A stretch of 39,994 nt of DNA. Origin: a virus. This document shows, in pieces, positions 11,418 to 25,215 of the stretch (position 1 is its first letter; every line of letters begins with the position of its first letter). The stretch spans positions 1 through 39,994 of IMG/VR virus record IMGVR_UViG_3300048998_000125; one strand, given 5' to 3'. Below the pieces are notes generated by a model that had not been told where the DNA came from, did not search any database, and saw nothing but the letters and a program-made list of their open reading frames with translations. The position numbers were made by a program, and so were the translations under genes.

Positions 11418-11590
11418 ATCTGTCACAAATCTGTCACAAGGCGGGCTGGAACCCGCATGAACTTGGTCCCGCCGACAGGAATCGAATCTGTCACATCGAT
11501 AATTCAAGGGAAAACATGATGCTAAGTCCTTGATTATTATCCCCCAAGCCTGCATGAATTGCCGTGCGCTGTCACAAAAACTGTCACAAA
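11418..11590. repeat. Putative attP region: five same-orientation copies of CTGTCACA(A) (integrase arm-type site candidates)
   Basis: AATCTGTCACA occurs at 11418-11428, 11429-11439 and 11485-11495. CTGTCACAA occurs at 11569-11577 and 11581-11589. The region lies directly downstream of the int stop. Confidence 0.6.
11464..11492 (-). other. Candidate attP core: GACAG-N9-CTGTC inverted repeat with tRNA 3'-end-like sequence (TTCGATTCC ... ACCA)
   Basis: The minus strand reads GACAGATTCGATTCCTGTCGGCGGGACCA, which is T-loop-like TTCGATT followed by a 7-nt acceptor-like segment, A and CCA. The T-stem closing pair is A.C, so this is not a functional tRNA end as it stands. Confidence 0.35.
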
Positions 11591-12756
11591 ACGGCTACTC
11601 CCTTCGGGCTGGCCAGCATCGCGTCCAGTTTTGAAATCTCCCGGTCGTTTGCCTCGCCGTCGATCCACTTCGAATAGACCTCGAAAAACATCCTGGTATC
11701 GGTGTGGCCCATTTGCCGCGCCACGTACGCCGGGTTCATGCCGGCATGCAGGCACATGGTGGCGAACGAGTGCCTGGTCTGCTTGGCGTCGCGGTCCCGG
11801 ATGCCGAGCGCCTTGAGTGCCGGCCGCCAAACCAGCTGCACCGCCGGCCCTGTGTCGAGCAACCGCTCGCCGGTATATGGGTTACTGAACACGTAGCCGC
11901 TTTTCTTCAAGAAGGTGTGTTTCTTCTGCCGCTGCAGCGCCGCCAGCGCGCGGCTGTTCAAATCGAGGTAGCGGCTCCGGTGCGTCTTGGCATCCTTGTC
12001 GATCGCGCGCACACGCGCCGCGTCAATGAGGCATTTCTTGCGCCGGAAGTCGATGTTCTGCCAGGAGACGGCAATCTCTTCTGACGGGCGCGGCCCGGCG
12101 AAGAACGCGAATTCGAAGTAGTTGAACCACTGCTCGTCGTAGTGGCTCTTGATGTGTGCTAGCACGAGTTCGATTTCGTCGATGTCCAGCGGGTCCGGCT
12201 CGGGCTTTTGATACTTCCGCGTCGGAATCTCGGCCGTGATGTCGATCGCTATTTTCTTCATGCGCAGCGCCAGGCCGAACACGCCGCGCGCCGGAGTCAT
12301 CAGGTTGTTGAAGGTCTTGGCGTTCTTGACCTTCTTGCGCGCGAGTAGCAAGGCCAGTTCTTCGTAGGTGATCGACGCGATCTGCCGCTGCTCGAATTCC
12401 GGGTAGAAGTGGCGCTGCAAGGTATTGCGATATTCTTTGATGGTGGTGGCCGCCAGCTCGCCGGCGACAATCGTGAGCCATGTGGCAGCGGCGTCGCCGA
12501 ACGTCACGCCGACCGGCGAATCCACCTTTTTCAGGTAGGGCGAATCTGGAAAGTCGGCTGCAAAGTCCTCGATCGTGTATTTTTCAATATCGATCGACTT
12601 GACGATCCGGTCTCTCAGCTTGGCCGCGGCCCGGAGATTGGCAGGCGTGGGACTGATGGCGATTCGCTCGCGGTGCCTTCGTCCTTCCCAGTTGAAGGAC
12701 ACGAGGATCGACGCCTTCCGCGCATAGATCCCTTCGAATTGCTCGTCTCGACCCAT
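11584..12756 (-). CDS. int: Tyrosine integrase (P4/DUF3596-arm type)
   Basis: The N-terminal arm-binding segment is GIYARKASILVSFNWEGRRHRERI. The C-terminal catalytic region is TRHSFATMCLHAGMNPAYVARQMGHTDTRMFFEVYSKW (R..H-x-x-R..H..Y). ATG 12756 is preferred over GTG 12765 because of GGAGG spacing. Confidence 0.9.
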   Translation of the reverse strand: MGRDEQFEGIYARKASILVSFNWEGRRHRERIAISPTPANLRAAAKLRDRIVKSIDIEKYTIEDFAADFPDSPYLKKVDSPVGVTFGDAAATWLTIVAGELAATTIKEYRNTLQRHFYPEFEQRQIASITYEELALLLARKKVKNAKTFNNLMTPARGVFGLALRMKKIAIDITAEIPTRKYQKPEPDPLDIDEIELVLAHIKSHYDEQWFNYFEFAFFAGPRPSEEIAVSWQNIDFRRKKCLIDAARVRAIDKDAKTHRSRYLDLNSRALAALQRQKKHTFLKKSGYVFSNPYTGERLLDTGPAVQLVWRPALKALGIRDRDAKQTRHSFATMCLHAGMNPAYVARQMGHTDTRMFFEVYSKWIDGEANDREISKLDAMLASPKGVAVL

Positions 12757-12938
12757 TTGTCCCACGCCTCCAAGCTAAATTGCCGCACATTGTCCGGCGC
12801 CCATTTCCAGTGAATGCCCTCGACCAGGTGGCCGTCGGCAACCAGGTGATTGAACGCGCCCTGCGAGCGCCCGGTCAGCTCAGCGATTTTGCCGACGGTA
12901 ACCCATTCGACTGGGCGGTAATTGAAAACCTTGTCCAT
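12615..12938 (-). CDS. xis: Excisionase-like DNA-binding protein
   Basis: ATG 12938 follows AAGGAG. PVEWVTVGKIAELTGRSQGAFNHLVADGHLVEGIHWKWAPDN...EAWDKW matches the excisionase (DUF1233-type) pattern. The last ~45 aa overlap int in another frame and look like read-through. Confidence 0.7.
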   Translation of the reverse strand: MDKVFNYRPVEWVTVGKIAELTGRSQGAFNHLVADGHLVEGIHWKWAPDNVRQFSLEAWDKWVETSNSKGSMRGRRRSSCPSTGKDEGTASESPSVPRLPISGPRPS

Positions 12939-16279: not shown

Positions 16280-18354
16280 GCTGCTCTCACGATCTGGCGC
16301 TCGTGCGCGAAGTTGGCTTGAATCAGCGCGCGCGCCATCGGCGGGCAGACGCTGTTGCCGCACATCCGGACTTGCGCGCTCTTGGTCAGCGGTCGCCACG
16401 GGATGCTGTGGATGTCCTCCACCTGCTCACCGTCGACGAACAGCTTTTCCCAGTCCGGAACGCTGTCGATGATGTAGTCCGCATTGAAGCCTTGCGCGCG
16501 GAACAGTTCCGGCGGCGCCAGCATGCGCAGTCCGATGTCGACGATCTGATAGTCCTGGCCCGCGATTGTCACCAGGCCGTAACGGTCCTTGGTGGTGACC
16601 GTGTGCAGCGGCTCCTCAAGGCGCGGGTCTTGGTCGGTGCCGTAATACTTCAGCAGGAAGGCGCGGACCTCGGCGTGGTGCAGTCCGCCCGCACTGACCG
16701 TGCTCAGCGGCTCATCGGCTGCTGCGGCGTTGCTGGTGCCACGTAGTTTGACTAGGTGACTGGCCACCAGCCGCGACTTCCCGCCGCCGCCAGCCGTCAC
16801 GGTACCGAGCGGGTCATCGGCACCGTGCCCGACGCTCTGGCCCATGTCGCGCTGAATGTGAGCCGTAACAAGGCTGTGGTGATCGCTGGACGTCACGGTG
16901 CCGATTGGGTCTTCCAGGTCGGACCCGACCACGCCGGTATAATGCTTGGCCAGGAACGCCGATACCAGCGCCTGGTTGCCGGTGCCGGCGACCGTGCCGA
17001 ATGGGGTTTCAATGTCCTTGTGCCCTTGGCCCCAGCGCTTGACGCCGGACGGGGAAACGTCCGCATGCGCCGCATCGACCAGCAACGCTGAAACGACGGC
17101 TGCCTTGCCGCTCCCGACAACTGTTCCGAGCGGCTTTTCGATGTCCAGAGCACGCGGCGCTTGGCCATCACGTTCGCCATAACCAGTCTGCACCATTGTT
17201 GCGGCAACGACGGCGGTGTCGTATTTCGAGGTCGCGGTAGCGGTCGGCTCGTCCACGCCACGCGGCCGGCTCTGACCAGCCCGGCCGCCGACGCCGGTCA
17301 ATACGGCCGTCATGACAGCTCTATGGTTTTCCGTCGGCAGCGTGCCTAACGGTTGATTGGCGGATACGGGTTTCCCAGAGTAGGCCGGACCGCCTTGGCC
17401 AAGAATGACCGGCACTATGGTTGGCTCCACCACGGAAAAGCCGTTGCTGGACATGATTGTGCGGACCGGCTCGTCTGAACCCCAAACGTTGGGCCCTCTG
17501 CCGGTCGTCTTGCTGTTAGCCGTATTGACAATGAAAGGGCTGGGGGAATTCACTACGTAGCGCATGATCCCCTTGGCGATCCGGCGCAGCGTGGCCTCGG
17601 CAAGCGGCTTCTTGCGGTCGAAGATCGACGGGCAGGGTAGGGACCAGTCAATGCACTCAGCGGCCGTGCGGTACGGCTGCAGCTTGCCGGCCTTGACGCC
17701 CAGGCTGTCTGGCGCGCCGTGCGTCGGCTCCGGCCACTGGATTGGTATCCCATCGCGGCGGGCCACCATGAAGAAGCGTTTTCGAATCGTTGGCGTGTCG
17801 TGATCGCATGCGCGCAGTTCGCGCCAGTCGACATCGTAGCCGTGCCCCTTCAACTGGCGCACGAAGCTTTCGAAGGTCTTGCCCTTCTTGGCCGGGTCAG
17901 GCATCCAGGTTTCTTGACCGTCGACCACCTTTACCAGCAGCGGGCCCCAGGTCTTAAATTCTTCGACGTTTTCCAGCATGATCACGCGCGGCTTGCACTT
18001 CGCGGCCCAGCGCAGGGTCACCCAGGCCAGCCCGCGAATCTTCTTCTCGACCGGCTTGCCGCCCTTGGCCTTGGAGAAGTGCTTGCAGTCCGGCGACAGC
18101 CACACCAGACCGACAGGCTGGTTGCCAGTGACCTTGATCGGGTCGACGTCCCAGACGCTTTCGCACAGGTGCTTTGTGTGCGGGTGATTCGCGGCGTGCA
18201 TAGCAAGCGCTTCCGGGTCGTGATTGATCGCGATGTCGACCGGCCGCCCAAAAGCTTGTTCCAGGCCTTCACTGGTGCCGCCGCCGCCGGCGAAGTTGTC
18301 GATTATCAGTTCGTCGGCGAGGCCGAGCGGTAACGTGAATTCGTCGCGTTTCAT
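16276..18354 (-). CDS. DNA (cytosine-5) methyltransferase with nine tandem TRD-like modules
   Basis: Motif I is DNFAGGGG, motif IV SPDCKHFS, motif VI ENVEEF and motif VIII TIRKRFFMVA. Near the C-terminus are RMLAPPELFRAQGF and motif X GNSVCPP. Residues ~293-600 contain nine repeats of [DE]-x-P-[LIF]-x-T-[VIL] ... LV. Confidence 0.9.
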   Translation of the reverse strand: MKRDEFTLPLGLADELIIDNFAGGGGTSEGLEQAFGRPVDIAINHDPEALAMHAANHPHTKHLCESVWDVDPIKVTGNQPVGLVWLSPDCKHFSKAKGGKPVEKKIRGLAWVTLRWAAKCKPRVIMLENVEEFKTWGPLLVKVVDGQETWMPDPAKKGKTFESFVRQLKGHGYDVDWRELRACDHDTPTIRKRFFMVARRDGIPIQWPEPTHGAPDSLGVKAGKLQPYRTAAECIDWSLPCPSIFDRKKPLAEATLRRIAKGIMRYVVNSPSPFIVNTANSKTTGRGPNVWGSDEPVRTIMSSNGFSVVEPTIVPVILGQGGPAYSGKPVSANQPLGTLPTENHRAVMTAVLTGVGGRAGQSRPRGVDEPTATATSKYDTAVVAATMVQTGYGERDGQAPRALDIEKPLGTVVGSGKAAVVSALLVDAAHADVSPSGVKRWGQGHKDIETPFGTVAGTGNQALVSAFLAKHYTGVVGSDLEDPIGTVTSSDHHSLVTAHIQRDMGQSVGHGADDPLGTVTAGGGGKSRLVASHLVKLRGTSNAAAADEPLSTVSAGGLHHAEVRAFLLKYYGTDQDPRLEEPLHTVTTKDRYGLVTIAGQDYQIVDIGLRMLAPPELFRAQGFNADYIIDSVPDWEKLFVDGEQVEDIHSIPWRPLTKSAQVRMCGNSVCPPMARALIQANFAHERQIVRAA

Positions 18355-18465: not shown

Positions 18466-18816
18466 TTATGCTGATTTGAGGCTTTCGCGCAGTAGGCGCA
18501 GCCAGGTGTTGCGCTGTTCGGTCCGCGCGACTTCCTCGGCGTGCTGCTTGGTGAAGTAATCGATGTCGCGCTGCGCCTCGCCGATGCGCGCCTGCAGCCA
18601 TTGCTGGCCGGTCATCAGCACCGGCGGCGGGTAATGGCTGGCGTCACAGTCCATTGCGATGGTGTCGGATAGCTGATCGATCATGAACGCCTGGAACGGC
18701 GCGTCCATCGGGTCATCACGCATCGGGATGGTGGCGCCCATGGCTCGCGCGCACATCATGGCGAACTGTTCGAACGTCATTTCCGCTGTAATCCTTGCTG
18801 TGTATCCGGTTGCCAT
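18466..18816 (-). CDS. Hypothetical protein, 116 aa
   Basis: ATG 18816 lies 6 nt after GGGAG. Composition is normal and no motif was recognised. Confidence 0.6.
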   Translation of the reverse strand: MATGYTARITAEMTFEQFAMMCARAMGATIPMRDDPMDAPFQAFMIDQLSDTIAMDCDASHYPPPVLMTGQQWLQARIGEAQRDIDYFTKQHAEEVARTEQRNTWLRLLRESLKSA

Positions 18817-18907
18817 TCGTCGCTCCCTGGTTAAATTCGTTGACCGTCTTTCCGGCCTGTCATCCCGACTGTGCCTTTACGCCGAACTGTCTCGGGAATT
18901 CCCGGCG

Positions 18908-18994
18908 TGTTGGTGGCGTGGAATCGAACCAAACTCACGTCCGCCTATGTGCAACATCTGCATAAACTGCGCTCTACCCATGAGCTACACCAAC
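18908..18994 (-). ncRNA. tRNA-like element lacking an anticodon loop (tRNA mimic or decayed tRNA)
   Basis: The minus strand reads GTTGGTG TA GCTC ATGGGTA GAGC G ... GTTTGG TTCGATT CCACGC CACCAAC A. It has a perfect 7-bp acceptor stem, a canonical D-arm with U8 and GG, and a consensus T-loop. The anticodon arm is replaced by a ~10-bp helix (GUUUAUGCAG/UUGCA-CA-UAGGC) capped by an AUG triloop. No CCA is encoded. Confidence 0.6.
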
Positions 18995-19157
18995 AAGGCA
19001 GCGGGCCGGACGTTACCCCGGCGATGTGTTCACAGTCTGGCCTTTCGGCTCTCAGTTTCTGCTTGGCCACCTGCCTGCCTTTACCCGTTGTTTTCTGTGT
19101 CCGGGTATCCCACTGCGCGTGTCTCCGAATCTCCACGCCGCCGCTGCCTTGTTGGTG
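18988..19157. repeat. Perfect 17-bp long-range inverted repeat (arms 18988-19004 and 19141-19157, 136-nt spacer)
   Basis: CACCAACAAGGCAGCGG pairs with CCGCTGCCTTGTTGGTG. One arm contains the 5' acceptor strand of the tRNA-like element. Confidence 0.9.
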
Positions 19158-19282
19158 CCGGTCTTTCCCGGCTGTATAGACTTTGCCCGCTGACTGGTGG
19201 CTGCCAATGGCGCTGCGCCGTCTGTGCCTTTCTAACTTCCCGCCCTAGCATGTAGGCCGCACTTTGGGGATCGCTGAGTTAG

Positions 19283-19304
19283 CAAAATAAGGGAGCCGCC
19301 CTTA
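19283..19304 (-). terminator. Weak intrinsic terminator-like hairpin inside the non-coding gap
   Basis: The minus strand reads UAAGGG-CGGCU-CCCUUA followed by UUUUG. The stem is 6 bp and the U-tract is short. Confidence 0.35.
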
Positions 19305-19429
19305 CCGCCCTCTGCCTCGGAGAATCCTGCTCGCAACACTCTCCGCGGAAGGCCGGTCTCTCCCGGCTGTCACCCAATTGACAGGGTTTGTCCCCTTACG
19401 GGCTATGGCACTGAGTGCCAATGAAACCG

Positions 19430-19630
19430 CTATGCCGTTGCTTCGGATTTGCTGCAGGTCGGGAACGGCCAAGCCGCCGCGGGATTGAGCACCGTCTTGA
19501 CTCCGGGCTGCTCGTCTTCCGGCTGCGCGCTGCAGCTGATGTCGGCGGCCGGCTTGCGCGCATCCCCGTTCAGTTCGCTGCGCGGGTTGAAATTGGTCAT
19601 GCGGACGGTCTGTTTCTGGAGGTCGAACAT
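19430..19630 (-). CDS. Hypothetical 66-aa protein (possibly an N-terminal remnant)
   Basis: TGATG coupling to the upstream ORF. MFDLQKQTVRMTNFNPRSELNGDARKPAADISCS looks protein-like, but the C-terminal third (AAAWPFPTCSKSEATA) is less convincing. Confidence 0.4.
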   Translation of the reverse strand: MFDLQKQTVRMTNFNPRSELNGDARKPAADISCSAQPEDEQPGVKTVLNPAAAWPFPTCSKSEATA

Positions 19631-24522: not shown

Positions 24523-25215
24523 TCAAAGGCGGTTTTTGATTTTCCGTGCCGGCACTGGATGTGCGACATAGTACATCCACACCACATCTTCTTCGGTGGT
24601 GTTGATCACCTCCGGATCGTTGTAGCTACCCAGCCGAATGCCGCCGCGCCGCGAAAGCAACCGCTTGAGCATCGTCCTGCCATCTTTCAGCCGCACCAGC
24701 ACGTCGTCTTCCAGCTCTGGAGTGGTGCCTGGCTCGACCAAAGCGTATTCCCCAGGGTTGAATCGCGGCACGCCGGACACGCCCTCGATCGGCACCAGAA
24801 AGGCATTCGGATCGCCGCTGGCCACCTCGGCATAGACGTCGGACGCACCGGCAGGGTAATCACCATCACCCCAAATCCGATCCGGTATCCCCGCCATCGC
24901 CTTGCCATACGCCGGGATCTTGCGCATGCGGTCCGTGCCGGCCGGGAAGGCGCCCGCGATATCGTCATGCGCGCGCGCCACGCGCTCGGCTTCTCGCGGT
25001 TCGCGGCCGTGCAGCAGCCATTGCGCGGTAATGCCGAGCACTTCGCAGACCCGCGTCAGATTCTTGCCGGCGATTTCCTTGATGCCGCCGTCCTCGACGC
25101 TTTTCTCCCAGTCGGTAACCGTTGCGTTCGAAACCGGTACCAATCTGGCAAAGGCGGTCTTGCTCAGCACAGCCGCTTCCCTGGCTTCTTTCAGCCTTTG
25201 TTTCCACTCTTCCAT
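24523..25215 (-). CDS. cI: CI-like repressor (XRE HTH + S24 LexA-like peptidase domain)
   Basis: The HTH is LSKTAFARLVPVSNATVTDWE. The C-terminal segment FLVPIEGVSGVPRFNPGEYALVEP...DDVLVRLKDGRTMLKRL parallels the S24 Ser...Lys architecture. The gene is divergent from cro, with three operators between them. Confidence 0.85.
   Translation of the reverse strand: MEEWKQRLKEAREAAVLSKTAFARLVPVSNATVTDWEKSVEDGGIKEIAGKNLTRVCEVLGITAQWLLHGREPREAERVARAHDDIAGAFPAGTDRMRKIPAYGKAMAGIPDRIWGDGDYPAGASDVYAEVASGDPNAFLVPIEGVSGVPRFNPGEYALVEPGTTPELEDDVLVRLKDGRTMLKRLLSRRGGIRLGSYNDPEVINTTEEDVVWMYYVAHPVPARKIKNRL

What the first reader, a model, noticed from the sequence alone, without database searches (positions are those of the whole stretch)
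18908..18994. tRNA mimic: perfect acceptor stem, D-arm and T-loop but the anticodon arm is a 10-bp helix with an AUG triloop
The minus strand folds as follows:
- acceptor GUUGGUG/CACCAAC, 7 of 7 Watson-Crick pairs
- U8-A9, then D-arm GCUC-AUGGGUA-GAGC
- T-loop GG-UUCGAUU-CC
- discriminator A

No 5-bp stem with a 7-nt loop can be drawn in the 36 nt between the D and T arms. The best fold is GUUUAUGCAG-AUG-UUGCA(CA)UAGGC, an elongated stem with no presentable anticodon. The T stem has one mismatch and possibly 6 pairs, and CCA is not encoded. An anticodon-less tRNA-shaped RNA could act as a decoy for tRNA-targeting host defences (anticodon nucleases of the PrrC/RloC/VapC type) or for tRNA-modifying or CCA-adding enzymes. 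It could also resemble the tRNA-like module of bacterial Y-RNA-like (YrlA) RNAs. All of these functions are speculative.
Basis: partly seen in the sequence, partly recalled or inferred. Interest (0 to 1): 0.7.

Follow-up and report, generated by a model that had tools for sequence, protein, structure and literature searches.

The report
Non-decoding tRNA-shaped module in phage RNA
A temperate phage carries a tRNA-shaped sequence that cannot decode, fused to the end of a larger folded non-coding RNA whose small leader hairpin also sits just upstream of tRNA genes in many unrelated phages.

Summary
The sequence features are real. On the minus strand, 18994..18908 has a 7/7 acceptor pairing, a textbook D arm (UAGCUCAUGGGUAGAGC) and a T loop (GGUUCGAUUCC). 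There is no 5-bp/7-nt anticodon arm. ARAGORN and Rfam do not call it. It is tRNA-derived but not a tRNA.

The proposed fold is not what thermodynamics predicts. The "10-bp helix" is weak (-4.9 kcal/mol). The 5' acceptor strand GUUGGUG is also the 3' end of a perfect 17-bp long-range helix with 19157..19141.

That helix abuts a 23-nt hairpin, UGACAGCC-N-GGARAGAC-N'-GGCA, present three times in this 613-nt non-coding gap. I found the hairpin in more than 120 unrelated viral contigs and in cultured phages of Proteobacteria, cyanobacteria and Bacteroides. It is absent from Rfam. It lies 3-8 nt upstream of canonical tRNAs and of many aberrant tRNA-like genes.

A hairpin-plus-helix RNA family shares the CAC.../...GUUGGUG helix. 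One E. coli prophage lineage (448 genomes) carries an analogous T-arm module with a compensated stem and no anticodon loop.

Most likely this is a non-decoding tRNA-like handle for tRNA-processing enzymes on an early-operon RNA. The decoy idea is untested, and YrlA membership fails on every feature I could test. Function is inferred, not shown.

The parts
18908..18994 (-). tRNA-shaped module. Acceptor 5' strand 18994-18988; U8A9; D arm 18985-18971; weak long arm 18967-18943 (loop 18957-18955, CA bulge 18949-18948); 8-nt linker; T arm 18934-18916 (loop 18928-18922); acceptor 3' strand 18915-18909; discriminator A 18908.
   Evidence: Sequence read. Not called by ARAGORN. Rfam tRNA-Sec 18.2 bits, below the gathering score of 47. 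Energies.
19157..19175 (-). Leader hairpin copy A: ACAGCCGGGAAAGACCGGC (5-bp stem, GAAAGA loop). It directly abuts the long-range helix.
   Evidence: Repeat family D1. The same motif occurs in >120 viral loci with a covarying N/N' pair.
19141..19157 (-). 5' arm of the 17-bp long-range helix: CACCAACAAGGCAGCGG. Its first 8 nt are identical to the 3' acceptor strand plus discriminator (CACCAACA).
   Evidence: Inverted repeat I2, 100% complementary; direct repeat D9. Formed in the MFE and centroid structures.
19005..19140 (-). 136-nt multi-stem domain enclosed by the long helix. It starts CGGCGUGGAGA and ends with the hairpin CCGGGGUAACGUCCGG.
   Evidence: Fold. Partly homologous to L174 2980-3022: 84% over 44 nt spanning hairpin copy A, the 5' helix arm and the first ~9 nt of this domain; shared start and terminal GGGGUARCG hairpin. 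In L132 the equivalent enclosed domain is a T-arm-bearing tRNA-like.
18988..19004 (-). 3' arm of the long-range helix: CCGCUGCCUUGUUGGUG. The last 7 nt are the tRNA-like 5' acceptor strand, which is the shared (switch) strand.
19352..19372 (-). Leader hairpin copy C: UGACAGCCGGGAGAGACCGGC (GAGAGA loop variant). It is followed after 7 nt by a local hairpin, CGGAGA...UCUCCG.
18842..18862 (-). Leader hairpin copy B (degenerate): UGACAGGCCGGAAAGACGGUC. It lies about 25 nt upstream of the ribosome-binding site and ATG (18816) of the 116-aa ORF.
   Evidence: The same hairpin-to-ATG spacing is seen in other phages.
18817..19429 (-). 613-nt non-coding gap in the early-left operon that holds all of the above. 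It lies between a 66-aa ORF (19430-19630) and the 116-aa ORF (18466-18816).
   Evidence: Gene calls on the source contig. ORF lists. All three GGARAGAC matches in the window fall here, on the minus strand.

Best explanation
What it is (fairly firm): a tRNA-derived, non-decoding module. It keeps the acceptor stem, D arm and T arm (the 'elbow' and 'top half' of a tRNA). It has lost the anticodon arm.

Where it sits:
- It is grafted onto the 3' end of a larger structured non-coding RNA in the early-left operon of a P22-like temperate phage.
- That RNA belongs to a previously uncatalogued phage family, built from a 23-nt leader hairpin (UGACAGCC-N-GGARAGAC-N'-GGCA) followed by a helix with ends CAC.../...GUUGGUG.
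- In other phages the same hairpin sits 3-8 nt in front of genuine tRNAs and of many tRNA-like genes with aberrant or missing anticodon arms.

How it most likely works (inferred):
- The module serves as a recognition and processing handle for the host's tRNA machinery: RNase P at the U(-1)/G1 junction, 3' trimming and CCA addition, and TruB/TrmA on the T loop.
- This would punctuate the polycistronic early transcript, or yield a stable tRNA-scaffolded RNA. The flanking leader hairpins would then end up at the new RNA ends.
- Two identical CACCAACA copies compete for the single GUUGGUG strand, so the tRNA shape can form only when the outer 7 bp of the upstream 17-bp helix open. The handle is therefore probably conditional (switch-like) rather than constitutive.
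For: Shown:
1. tRNA-specific sequence features are intact while the anticodon arm is replaced and is 8 nt longer.
2. Context is an early-left operon gap, between the RecT side and the C5-methylase side, in a P22-like temperate phage.
3. The 17-bp perfect helix shares the acceptor strand. Its inner 10 bp persist in both states and only the outer 7 bp swap.
4. The hairpin motif is real and widespread:
   - 117 unique viral instances
   - the unsearched flanking positions are conserved (G at -1 in 116/117, U at -2 in 99/117)
   - N/N' is Watson-Crick in 116/117
   - it occurs in cultured phages of three phyla
   - no common neighbouring protein
5. Nineteen ARAGORN-called tRNA genes (two of them with an undetermined anticodon) start 3-8 nt after the hairpin. 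Of 23 hairpin-adjacent tRNA-shaped genes, 11 are aberrant.
6. The same architecture, a long helix in place of the anticodon arm, occurs independently in L246, L031, L053, L054 and L097.
7. The hairpin-helix family shows compensatory helix changes in L174, L241, L286, L217, mEp390, P7641 and BUCT708. In L132 the helix encloses a tRNA-like. In L286 a tRNA-like follows the helix.
8. An E. coli prophage lineage (448 genomes) has GUUGUGGUG-AA-hairpin-CCCGG UUCGAUU CCGGG-CGCC-CAUCAUC-A. The T loop is the same, the T stem differs at three of five positions (two compensated pairs; our U-C mismatch becomes C-G), and 6/7 acceptor-like pairs remain, one through a two-sided change.

From established knowledge: U at -1 and a 7-bp acceptor stacked on a T arm are the main bacterial RNase P determinants.
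Against: - No experiment or expression data are available.
- No close homologue of this exact module exists, so its own pairs cannot be tested by covariation.
- Nearest-neighbour energies disfavour the cloverleaf by about 15 kcal/mol in context. Co-transcriptional order also favours the upstream helix.
- CCA is not encoded, the T stem has a mismatch, and the acceptor/T stack is 7/6.
- Position 15 is U.
- Sister RNAs (mEp390, BUCT708, L174) lack any T-arm module, so it is dispensable for the family.
- The excess of aberrant tRNA-likes next to the hairpin over elsewhere in the same loci is modest (11/23 against at most 23/84).
Confidence: 0.4

Rival explanations
1. Decaying relic. A phage tRNA gene once sat behind the leader hairpin and lost its anticodon arm by an indel or recombination. 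It is now neutral sequence, and its acceptor pairing is an accident of a local duplication of CGGCACCAACA.
For: - Singleton with no homologue of the arm.
- The arm is weak, the T stem has a mismatch and an extra nucleotide.
- The cloverleaf is not the MFE.
- There is an 11-nt direct repeat, 10/11 identical (D9).
- Related RNAs do without the module.
- Aberrant tRNA-likes are common in these phages even away from the hairpin.
Against: - The acceptor stem (7/7), D stem (4/4), T loop and the tertiary positions checked (U8, A14, G18G19, A21, G53, U54-A58, C61) are intact, with only U15 atypical and the T stem carrying one mismatch, while one arm is wholly replaced. Random decay would not spare them.
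- The same 'top half kept, anticodon arm replaced or deleted' pattern recurs independently in many phages.
- An E. coli prophage keeps an analogous module identical in 448 genomes. Relative to ours, its T stem changes by compensating substitutions.
Confidence: 0.25
2. Regulatory conformational switch. The two CACCAACA copies compete for GUUGGUG. Which helix forms is set by transcription kinetics, a protein or a tRNA-binding factor. The choice controls processing or translation of the downstream 116-aa ORF and methylase genes. The tRNA shape is the sensor or effector state.
For: - Identical 8-mers at 19157..19150 and 18915..18908, both complementary to 18995..18988.
- Only the outer 7 bp differ between the two states.
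- The region as a whole is more structured than shuffles (z = -3.13).
Against: - The energy gap of about 15 kcal/mol makes spontaneous switching unlikely.
- No ligand or factor is identified.
- No terminator or sequestered ribosome-binding site is linked to either state.
- There are no homologues with which to test both helices.
Confidence: 0.12
3. Decoy. The anticodon-less tRNA shape soaks up a host tRNA-targeting defence or toxin that recognises the elbow or acceptor end, or it titrates a tRNA-modifying or CCA-adding enzyme.
For: - Early-operon location.
- Intact elbow and acceptor without an anticodon.
- Aberrant tRNA-likes are numerous in phages.
- From the literature: phage tRNAs are proposed to counter anticodon nucleases (PMC10264068, listed).
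Against: - Known anticodon nucleases need the anticodon loop, which is absent here.
- No defence or anti-defence gene context was found.
- A single weakly folding copy embedded in an mRNA is a poor stoichiometric sponge.
- Nothing computed here bears on the idea directly.
Confidence: 0.1
4. YrlA-type Y RNA module that tethers a Ro60 (Rsr) protein.
For: It has a tRNA-like D arm and T arm with a non-anticodon stem. From the paper (PMC4201824): YrlA RNAs occur in phages and one is cleaved by RNase P.
Against: - No TROVE domain in the 20 ORFs scanned, nor in the stored Pfam hits for genes within 6 kb.
- No Rfam hit apart from tRNA-Sec at E up to 10.
- Module order is standard rather than permuted.
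- The GNCGAAN(0-1)G matches are at chance level and not in a terminal helix.
Confidence: 0.02
5. Attachment-site debris: a tRNA fragment left by integrase-mediated recombination.
For: Direct repeat of the tRNA-like 3' end. The phage has a tyrosine integrase. Related prophages end in tRNA 3' fragments.
Against: - The integrase is 6 kb away (11584-12765).
- Both halves of the tRNA shape are present.
- The repeat copy lies upstream of the 5' end, not downstream of the 3' end.
- The upstream copy is a conserved part of the hairpin-helix family.
Confidence: 0.03

Closest known systems
Canonical phage-encoded tRNA genes
   Same: Acceptor stem, U8/A9, D arm with G18G19, T arm with UUCGAUU. In other phages the same leader hairpin precedes genuine tRNAs of many isotypes at 3-8 nt.
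   Different: No 5-bp/7-nt anticodon arm. 87 nt long. 7/6 rather than 7/5 stacking. Not called by ARAGORN or Rfam. The acceptor strand is shared with an upstream helix.
YrlA / bacterial Y RNA tRNA-like domain (PMC4201824)
   Same: Mimics the D arm, T arm and acceptor of tRNA without decoding. Found in phages. Can be an RNase P and CCA-adding substrate.
   Different: YrlA is circularly permuted (the acceptor is capped by a loop and the ends emerge through the anticodon-position stem), carries a Ro60-binding helix and lies next to rsr. None of these holds here.
tmRNA tRNA-like domain
   Same: A tRNA top half used for something other than codon reading, processed by RNase P.
   Different: tmRNA lacks a D stem, has G3-U70 and a tag reading frame. 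ARAGORN finds no tmRNA.
tRNA-scaffold and tRNA-punctuation principles: engineered tRNA scaffolds, gammaherpesvirus tRNA-miRNA units, MALAT1 mascRNA, mitochondrial tRNA punctuation (recalled from my own knowledge, not tested here)
   Same: A tRNA body whose anticodon arm is replaced by another hairpin, or a tRNA shape within a long transcript, used so that RNase P/Z cut and stabilise RNA.
   Different: Those are eukaryotic, organellar or engineered cases. No bacterial-phage family of this kind is catalogued in Rfam 15.
Lambda nut boxB hairpin and intercistronic RNase III sites of T7/lambda (from my own knowledge)
   Same: For the leader hairpin: a 5-bp stem with a purine-rich GAA(A/G)A-type loop in early-operon leaders. 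In an E. coli prophage and in BUCT708 the first copy lies a few tens of nt downstream of a likely early promoter next to the repressor gene. The 17-bp perfect duplex resembles an RNase III site.
   Different: The loop has six nucleotides. There is no boxA. The motif also occurs in N4-like, crAss-like and cyanobacterial phages and directly in front of tRNAs. HK022 lacks it.

Membership tests
Canonical tRNA (Rfam RF00005 / ARAGORN) | Anticodon arm with a 5-bp stem and 7-nt loop | tested here: not met
   No such arm can be drawn in the 36-40 nt between the D and T arms. ARAGORN finds 0 genes. Rfam clan best is 18.2 bits, below threshold.
Canonical tRNA (Rfam RF00005 / ARAGORN) | 7-bp acceptor, 4-bp D stem with A14/G18G19/A21, T loop UUCRANY with G53-C61 | tested here: met
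   Read directly from the sequence. The D arm matches the consensus regex. Caveats: the T stem has one mismatch plus an extra pair, and position 15 is U.
Canonical tRNA (Rfam RF00005 / ARAGORN) | Cloverleaf is the stable fold of the transcript | tested here: not met
   Isolated: -22.0 against an MFE of -26.5. In context: -95.5 against -110.8 kcal/mol. Tertiary contacts are not modelled.
tRNA-Sec (RF01852) | Score at or above gathering; 8/5 or 9/4 acceptor/T stacking; 6-bp D stem; UCA anticodon | tested here: not met
   18.2 bits against 47. Stacking is 7/6, the D stem is 4 bp, and there is no UCA loop.
YrlA / Y RNA | Adjacent Ro60 (TROVE-domain) gene | tested here: not met
   No TROVE hit in 20 ORFs scanned against Pfam, nor in the stored Pfam hits for genes within 6 kb on the source contig.
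YrlA / Y RNA | Permuted order (T arm, capped acceptor, D arm) with the RNA ends in a Ro-binding helix carrying GNCGAAN(0-1)G | tested here: not met
   The order is acceptor-D-arm-T-acceptor. The two motif matches are at chance level and lie in a GNRA hairpin and at an ORF start. Feature definition taken from PMC4201824.
tmRNA | tRNA-like domain without a D stem, plus a tag ORF | tested here: not met
   ARAGORN tmRNA search is negative, and a D stem is present.
Leader-hairpin motif (defined here): UGACAGCC-N-GGARAGAC-N'-GGCA | 5-bp stem with a covarying fourth pair, GARAGA loop, UG(ACA) 5' flank | tested here: met
   Three copies at 19372-19352, 19175-19157 and 18862-18842. Family statistics.
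Hairpin-plus-helix RNA family (defined here) | Helix starting 0-2 nt after the hairpin with 5' CAC(A/C)(A/C)A... and 3' ...GUUG(U/G)GGUG, enclosing a variable domain | tested here: met
   Window 19157-19141 / 19004-18988. Homologous layouts with different, compensated helix sequences occur in L174, L241, L286, L217, mEp390, P7641, BUCT708 and an E. coli prophage. The family is not general to all hairpin instances.
RNase P / CCA-adding substrate (functional class) | Cleavage at -1/+1 and CCA addition | not testable with these tools
   Only the determinants can be read from the sequence: U(-1), a 7-bp acceptor on a T arm, A73.

The most novel reading that the evidence does not exclude
The leader hairpin (UGACAGCC-N-GGARAGAC-N'-GGCA) together with the tRNA-shaped or helical module that follows it forms an undescribed phage RNA system found across bacterial phyla.

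In this reading, phages place a universal 23-nt hairpin immediately 5' of tRNAs, anticodon-less tRNA scaffolds or long helices. This exploits a universally conserved host machine to cut, stabilise or regulate early transcripts. RNase P is the obvious candidate, given the fixed 3-8 nt spacing to tRNA position +1.

The window's element would be a switchable member, in which one strand can complete either the family helix or a tRNA acceptor stem.
Probability: 0.25. Interest if true: 0.8.

Novelty: new variant of a known kind. Interest (0 to 1): 0.6.

Why it matters
If the tRNA shape is used as a processing or stability handle, it would be a natural bacterial-virus counterpart of the engineered "tRNA scaffold" and of mitochondrial tRNA punctuation.

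The accompanying 23-nt hairpin is nearly invariant in phages of Proteobacteria, cyanobacteria and Bacteroides, and it is precisely spaced from tRNA 5' ends. That makes it a new, easily testable handle on how phages interact with a universal host RNA machine.

Practically, many phage "tRNA-like" sequences that tRNA finders miss, or label tRNA-??? with odd anticodons, may belong to this class and should not be annotated as decoding tRNAs or dismissed as pseudogenes.

If instead it is a relic, the finding is ordinary. Even then, the hairpin motif still deserves a covariance model and an Rfam entry.

Tried and rejected
**Searches for homologues of the tRNA-like module**
1. Exact 24-mer and 22-mer searches of the element in viral contigs: 0 hits.
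2. D-loop-specific gapped patterns in genome and metagenome collections: 0 hits. Even the window's own contig is not held there.
3. 86 RecT-linked loci from genomes, metagenomes and viral contigs. None has a homologue of the tRNA-like; only the hairpin and part of the 5' helix region match.
4. Homologues of the downstream 116-aa ORF. There are only four, in unrelated contexts with short upstream spacers. Ours is an internally deleted version, not an N-terminally truncated gene, so the gap is not a broken gene.
5. A signature pattern for 'helix strand + T arm + CAYCA' in viral contigs. It found only ordinary tRNAs and the E. coli-prophage copies.
6. BLAST of the element against phage genomes. 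Only generic D-arm matches to Gly, Ile, Val and Trp tRNAs, with no identifiable parent tRNA.

**Tests of specific ideas**
1. An intron or insertion in the anticodon loop: no excision restores a canonical loop (by eye).
2. An antisense target of the arm inside the phage: only chance 9-mers.
3. 'A helix abuts every leader hairpin': rejected. Ungapped complementarity is no better than a shuffled control, so the helix defines a sub-family only.
4. A shared neighbouring protein for the hairpin: none. At most 6 of 120 loci share any ORF cluster.
5. HK022 put RNA as the identity of the hairpin: HK022 lacks the motif.
6. The hairpin as a sigma-70 promoter (TGACA as the -35 element): the -10 position is not conserved, and the predicted start would fall inside the tRNA (by eye).

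**Database and literature checks**
1. Rfam at permissive thresholds on the window gap, mEp390 and L132. Nothing relevant; the only near-hit is a weak Mahella-1 match (17 bits against 70.7) to the 3' part of the L132 RNA.
2. Literature searches by sequence and by concept: nothing describing the motif or the class.
Full report
**1. The observation**

On the minus strand, 18994..18908 reads GUUGGUG-UA-GCUC-AUGGGUA-GAGC-GCA-GUUUAUGCAG-AUG-UUGCA(CA)UAGGC-GGACGUGA-GUUUGG-UUCGAUU-CCACGC-CACCAAC-A. The features present are:
- Acceptor stem: 7/7 Watson-Crick pairs.
- U8 and A9.
- A 4-bp D stem whose loop has A14, GGG and A21.
- G53-UUCGAUU-C61.
- Discriminator A.

The standard detectors do not call it.
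- ARAGORN finds no tRNA or tmRNA in the whole window.
- Rfam finds nothing at gathering thresholds.
- With permissive thresholds the only relevant match is tRNA-Sec at 18.2 bits, against a gathering score of 47.

The chance level depends on what is counted.
- A loose detector (T arm plus 7-bp acceptor) fires 0.34 times per dinucleotide-shuffled window. It gives one other, evidently chance, hit inside the methylase gene.
- The significance therefore rests on the D-arm consensus and the exact T loop occurring at the right positions. I estimate this at about 1e-8 per window (an inference).

The element is tRNA-derived.

**2.

- Alone, the 87 nt prefers a non-cloverleaf fold: -26.5 against -22.0 kcal/mol, with z = -1.06.
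- The anticodon-position arm contains three G-U pairs and a 2-nt bulge and is worth only -4.9 kcal/mol. Its MFE has a 5-nt rather than a 3-nt loop.
- The repeat scan found a perfect 17-nt inverted repeat. On the minus strand, 19157..19141 is CACCAACAAGGCAGCGG and 19004..18988 is CCGCUGCCUUGUUGGUG. The last seven bases of the second arm are the 5' acceptor strand.
- The first eight bases of the upstream arm (CACCAACA) are identical to the 3' acceptor strand plus discriminator (direct repeat D9).
- Folding 19240..18820 gives the 17-bp helix in both the MFE and the centroid, with z = -3.13.
- Forcing the cloverleaf costs about 15 kcal/mol. Only the outer 7 bp of the long helix are exchanged, and the inner 10 bp persist.
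- The upstream partner is also transcribed first.

These energies ignore tertiary structure and proteins. The cloverleaf is therefore disfavoured, not excluded.

**3. Context**

The window is a P22-like temperate phage. The scans identify a portal, coat protein and gp10-like stabilisation protein, an S24/HTH repressor at 24523-25215, and a tyrosine integrase at 11584-12765. GC content is about 61%.

The closest RecT relatives are in Pseudoduganella prophages, at 70-71% amino-acid identity.

The element lies in a 613-nt non-coding gap (18817-19429) of the minus-strand early-left operon. The order of that operon is:
- YqaJ exonuclease
- RecT
- small ORFs
- the gap
- a 116-aa ORF
- C5 methylase
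- further genes, ending with the integrase

No promoter or intrinsic terminator is predicted on that strand. The same contig is present in a Logan assembly.

**4. A conserved leader hairpin**

The gap contains three copies of a 19-21-nt hairpin, at 19372-19352, 19175-19157 and (degenerate) 18862-18842. All three GGARAGAC matches in the 40-kb window are these copies.

In 117 unique instances:
- the two positions 5' of the pattern, which were not specified in the search, are U (85%) and G (99%)
- the position 3' of the pattern is A (76%)
- the two free positions N and N' are Watson-Crick in 116 cases and G-U in one

The motif is therefore a real RNA (or single-strand) hairpin. It has a 5-bp stem, a GARAGA loop and a UGACA 5' flank. 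Variants with other, compensated stems exist:
- mEp390: UGACACCUCGGAAGAGACGAGG
- E. coli prophage: CCAGGGAAGAGUCCUGG

These variants were seen.

Its distribution is broad. It occurs in cultured phages of Escherichia, Klebsiella, Cronobacter, Pseudomonas, Stenotrophomonas, Xanthomonas, Ralstonia and Acinetobacter. It also occurs in cyanobacterial phages, a Bacteroides phage and a crAss-like phage. There is usually one locus per genome.

The loci share no neighbouring protein. Rfam has no match, and I found no paper containing the sequence.

**5. Link to tRNAs**

- Where a tRNA is nearby, it starts 3-8 nt (mostly 4-6) after the hairpin on the same strand. There are 19 such ARAGORN calls: 17 with a defined isotype (Gln, Leu, Pro, Trp, Asn, Met, Ser, Gly) and 2 with an undetermined anticodon.
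- Of 23 hairpin-adjacent tRNA-shaped genes, 11 are aberrant: the anticodon arm is absent, over-long or irregular. Elsewhere in the same loci at most 23 of 84 are aberrant.
- Independently, a gapped pattern for 'class-I D arm, over-long middle, T arm' returned more than 119 viral loci. Several of them carry a long helix with a small or stable loop where the anticodon arm should be, for example L031, L053, L054, L097 and L246.

The window's architecture is thus recurrent in phages, although each instance is sequence-unique.

**6. A hairpin-plus-helix RNA family that owns the acceptor strand**

In a sub-family the hairpin is followed at 0-2 nt by a helix whose ends are conserved: 5' CAC(A/C)(A/C)A... 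and ...GUUG(U/G)GGUG 3'. Its interior covaries. Examples are:
- window: CACCAACAAGGCAGCGG / CCGCUGCCUUGUUGGUG
- L174: CACCACAGAGCAAGGG / CCCUUGCUCUGUGGUG
- L241: CACUAACACG / CGUGUUGGUG
- L286: ACCACACUGAGG / CCUCAGUGUGGU
- also L217, mEp390, Klebsiella phage P7641 and BUCT708

These are documented. This is not a property of all hairpin instances.

The window and L174 also share the start (CGGCGUGGA) and the terminal hairpin (GGGGUARCG) of the enclosed domain.

Two further loci show tRNA-like modules in this family.
- In L132 the equivalent outer helix (CACCACAGG / CCUGUGGUG) encloses a four-way-junction tRNA-like with a UUCGAAU T arm (z = -3.0).
- In L286 a tRNA-like with two T loops follows the helix.

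GUUGGUG is therefore an ancestral part of this family. The tRNA-like module has been built onto it, with a second copy of CACCAACA supplying the 3' acceptor strand.

**7. A candidate homologue of the module**

An E. coli prophage sits in a leader of about 1 kb directly after the cI-like repressor gene. Its copy in the O25:H4 record examined here matches at >=99% identity in 448 of 5426 complete genomes.

The prophage has the variant hairpin and the family helix, followed by GUUGUGGUG-AA-CAGGUGUUU-AACGGG(AACUCCCUG)CCCGUU-A-CCCGG-UUCGAUU-CCGGG-CGCC-CAUCAUC-A. An intrinsic terminator comes after that.

Compared with the window:
- The T loop is identical.
- The T stem differs at three of five positions: two pairs are kept by compensating changes and the window's U-C mismatch becomes C-G.
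- Six of seven acceptor-like pairs can form, one of them through a change on both sides.
- There is no D arm.
- The middle hairpin has a 9-nt loop, so there is no canonical anticodon arm either.

The sister phages mEp390 and BUCT708 lack the module. A signature search found no further divergent copies.

Homologues do not carry a normal anticodon loop. T-arm and acceptor pairing are kept, and the D arm is not.

**8. Interpretation**

Firm:
- The element is a tRNA-derived, non-decoding module.
- It is attached to a conserved phage non-coding RNA.
- It is not a tRNA, tRNA-Sec, tmRNA or YrlA. There is no TROVE gene, no permuted order and no Rfam hit.

Inferred:
- What is conserved across the class is the tRNA top half, and the leader hairpin keeps a fixed distance from tRNA position +1.
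- The most economical mechanism is therefore that these modules are handles for tRNA-processing enzymes, which punctuate or stabilise early transcripts.
- The relevant features are U at -1, a 7-bp acceptor on a T arm, and the elbow. The candidate enzymes are RNase P, 3' trimming and CCA addition, and TruB/TrmA.
- In this phage the handle would be gated by competition between two CACCAACA copies.

Rivals are a recent relic, a pure conformational switch, a decoy, and att debris. They are weighed in the structured fields. I found no antisense target for the arm and no parent tRNA.

**9. Comparison and novelty**

The nearest known things are:
- phage tRNAs
- the YrlA tRNA-like domain
- the tmRNA tRNA-like domain
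- by principle, tRNA scaffolds and tRNA punctuation
- for the hairpin, lambda boxB

None fits as a family. I rate the element a new variant of a known kind (tRNA-like RNA modules).

The leader hairpin and the hairpin-helix family appear uncatalogued in Rfam 15 and in the literature I could search.

Two resemblances of the hairpin are recalled from memory and are leads only: RNase P RNA GGAAAGUCCGG and 23S rRNA GGAAAGACC.

Noticed in passing
L011, L014, L015, L024, L036, L045, L090 and about 40 other viral loci: A large family of phage tRNAs with a class-I D arm, anticodon loop CUUAUAC/UUUAUGC (UAU, called Ile by ARAGORN), an unusually long variable arm whose own loop is a conserved CAGAUUA/CAGAUAA heptamer, and an encoded ACCA end. 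This is an odd combination for tRNA-Ile.
   Followed up: no
L322 2799-2859; L307 about 4460; L068 3925-3855 (-); L253 4322-4391; L233 5734-5802: Phage tRNA-shaped genes with acceptor, D arm and T arm but essentially no anticodon arm (60-70 nt), some with encoded CCA. Several lie directly behind the leader hairpin.
   Followed up: partly
L132 1700-1950; L174 3200-3300; L216, L218, L252, L256, L271: The hairpin-helix RNA extends 3' in one subgroup with two further conserved hairpins, GAAUGCGCAGGCUGAUGCGC and GCCGGAGAUCAGCACCGGCC(ACCAC). In L252 a tRNA-like with two T loops follows the latter hairpin. There is a weak, sub-threshold Rfam similarity to Mahella-1 (17 bits against 70.7).
   Followed up: partly
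L336 1121-2131 (E. coli O25:H4 prophage); L339 381-1263 (phage BUCT708): The about 0.9-1 kb non-coding leader after the repressor gene carries six or seven copies of (R)GGAAAGACC, only some within hairpins, plus an internal intrinsic terminator. It looks like a regulatory leader or protein- or factor-binding array.
   Followed up: partly
window 18466-18816 (-): The 116-aa ORF downstream of the gap is an internally deleted version of a family of about 197 aa (phrog_8905). N- and C-termini align with P0002-P0004 but about 80 central residues are missing.
   Followed up: partly
window 19352-19372 and upstream 19373-19390 (-): In copy C the conserved UGACAG flank can pair with CUGUCA 6 nt upstream (CUGUCAauugggUGACAG). 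This was not seen at other copies.
   Followed up: no
window about 17080-17157 (-), inside the C5-methylase gene: A second 'T-loop-like + 7-bp acceptor' hit from my loose detector. It is at the chance rate (0.34 per shuffled window) and lies in coding sequence, so it is almost certainly spurious.
   Followed up: partly
L124 12345-12470: The Pseudoduganella prophage related by RecT ends in a tRNA 3' fragment (...GGGUUCGAAUCCCACCCUCUCCGCCA), a typical att core. The window's phage shows nothing comparable next to its integrase in the parts I read.
   Followed up: no
window 18683-19255 (+): A 190-aa ATG ORF on the opposite strand spans the whole tRNA-like region. It has no support from the gene calls on the source contig and is probably a GC-rich artefact.
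   Followed up: no
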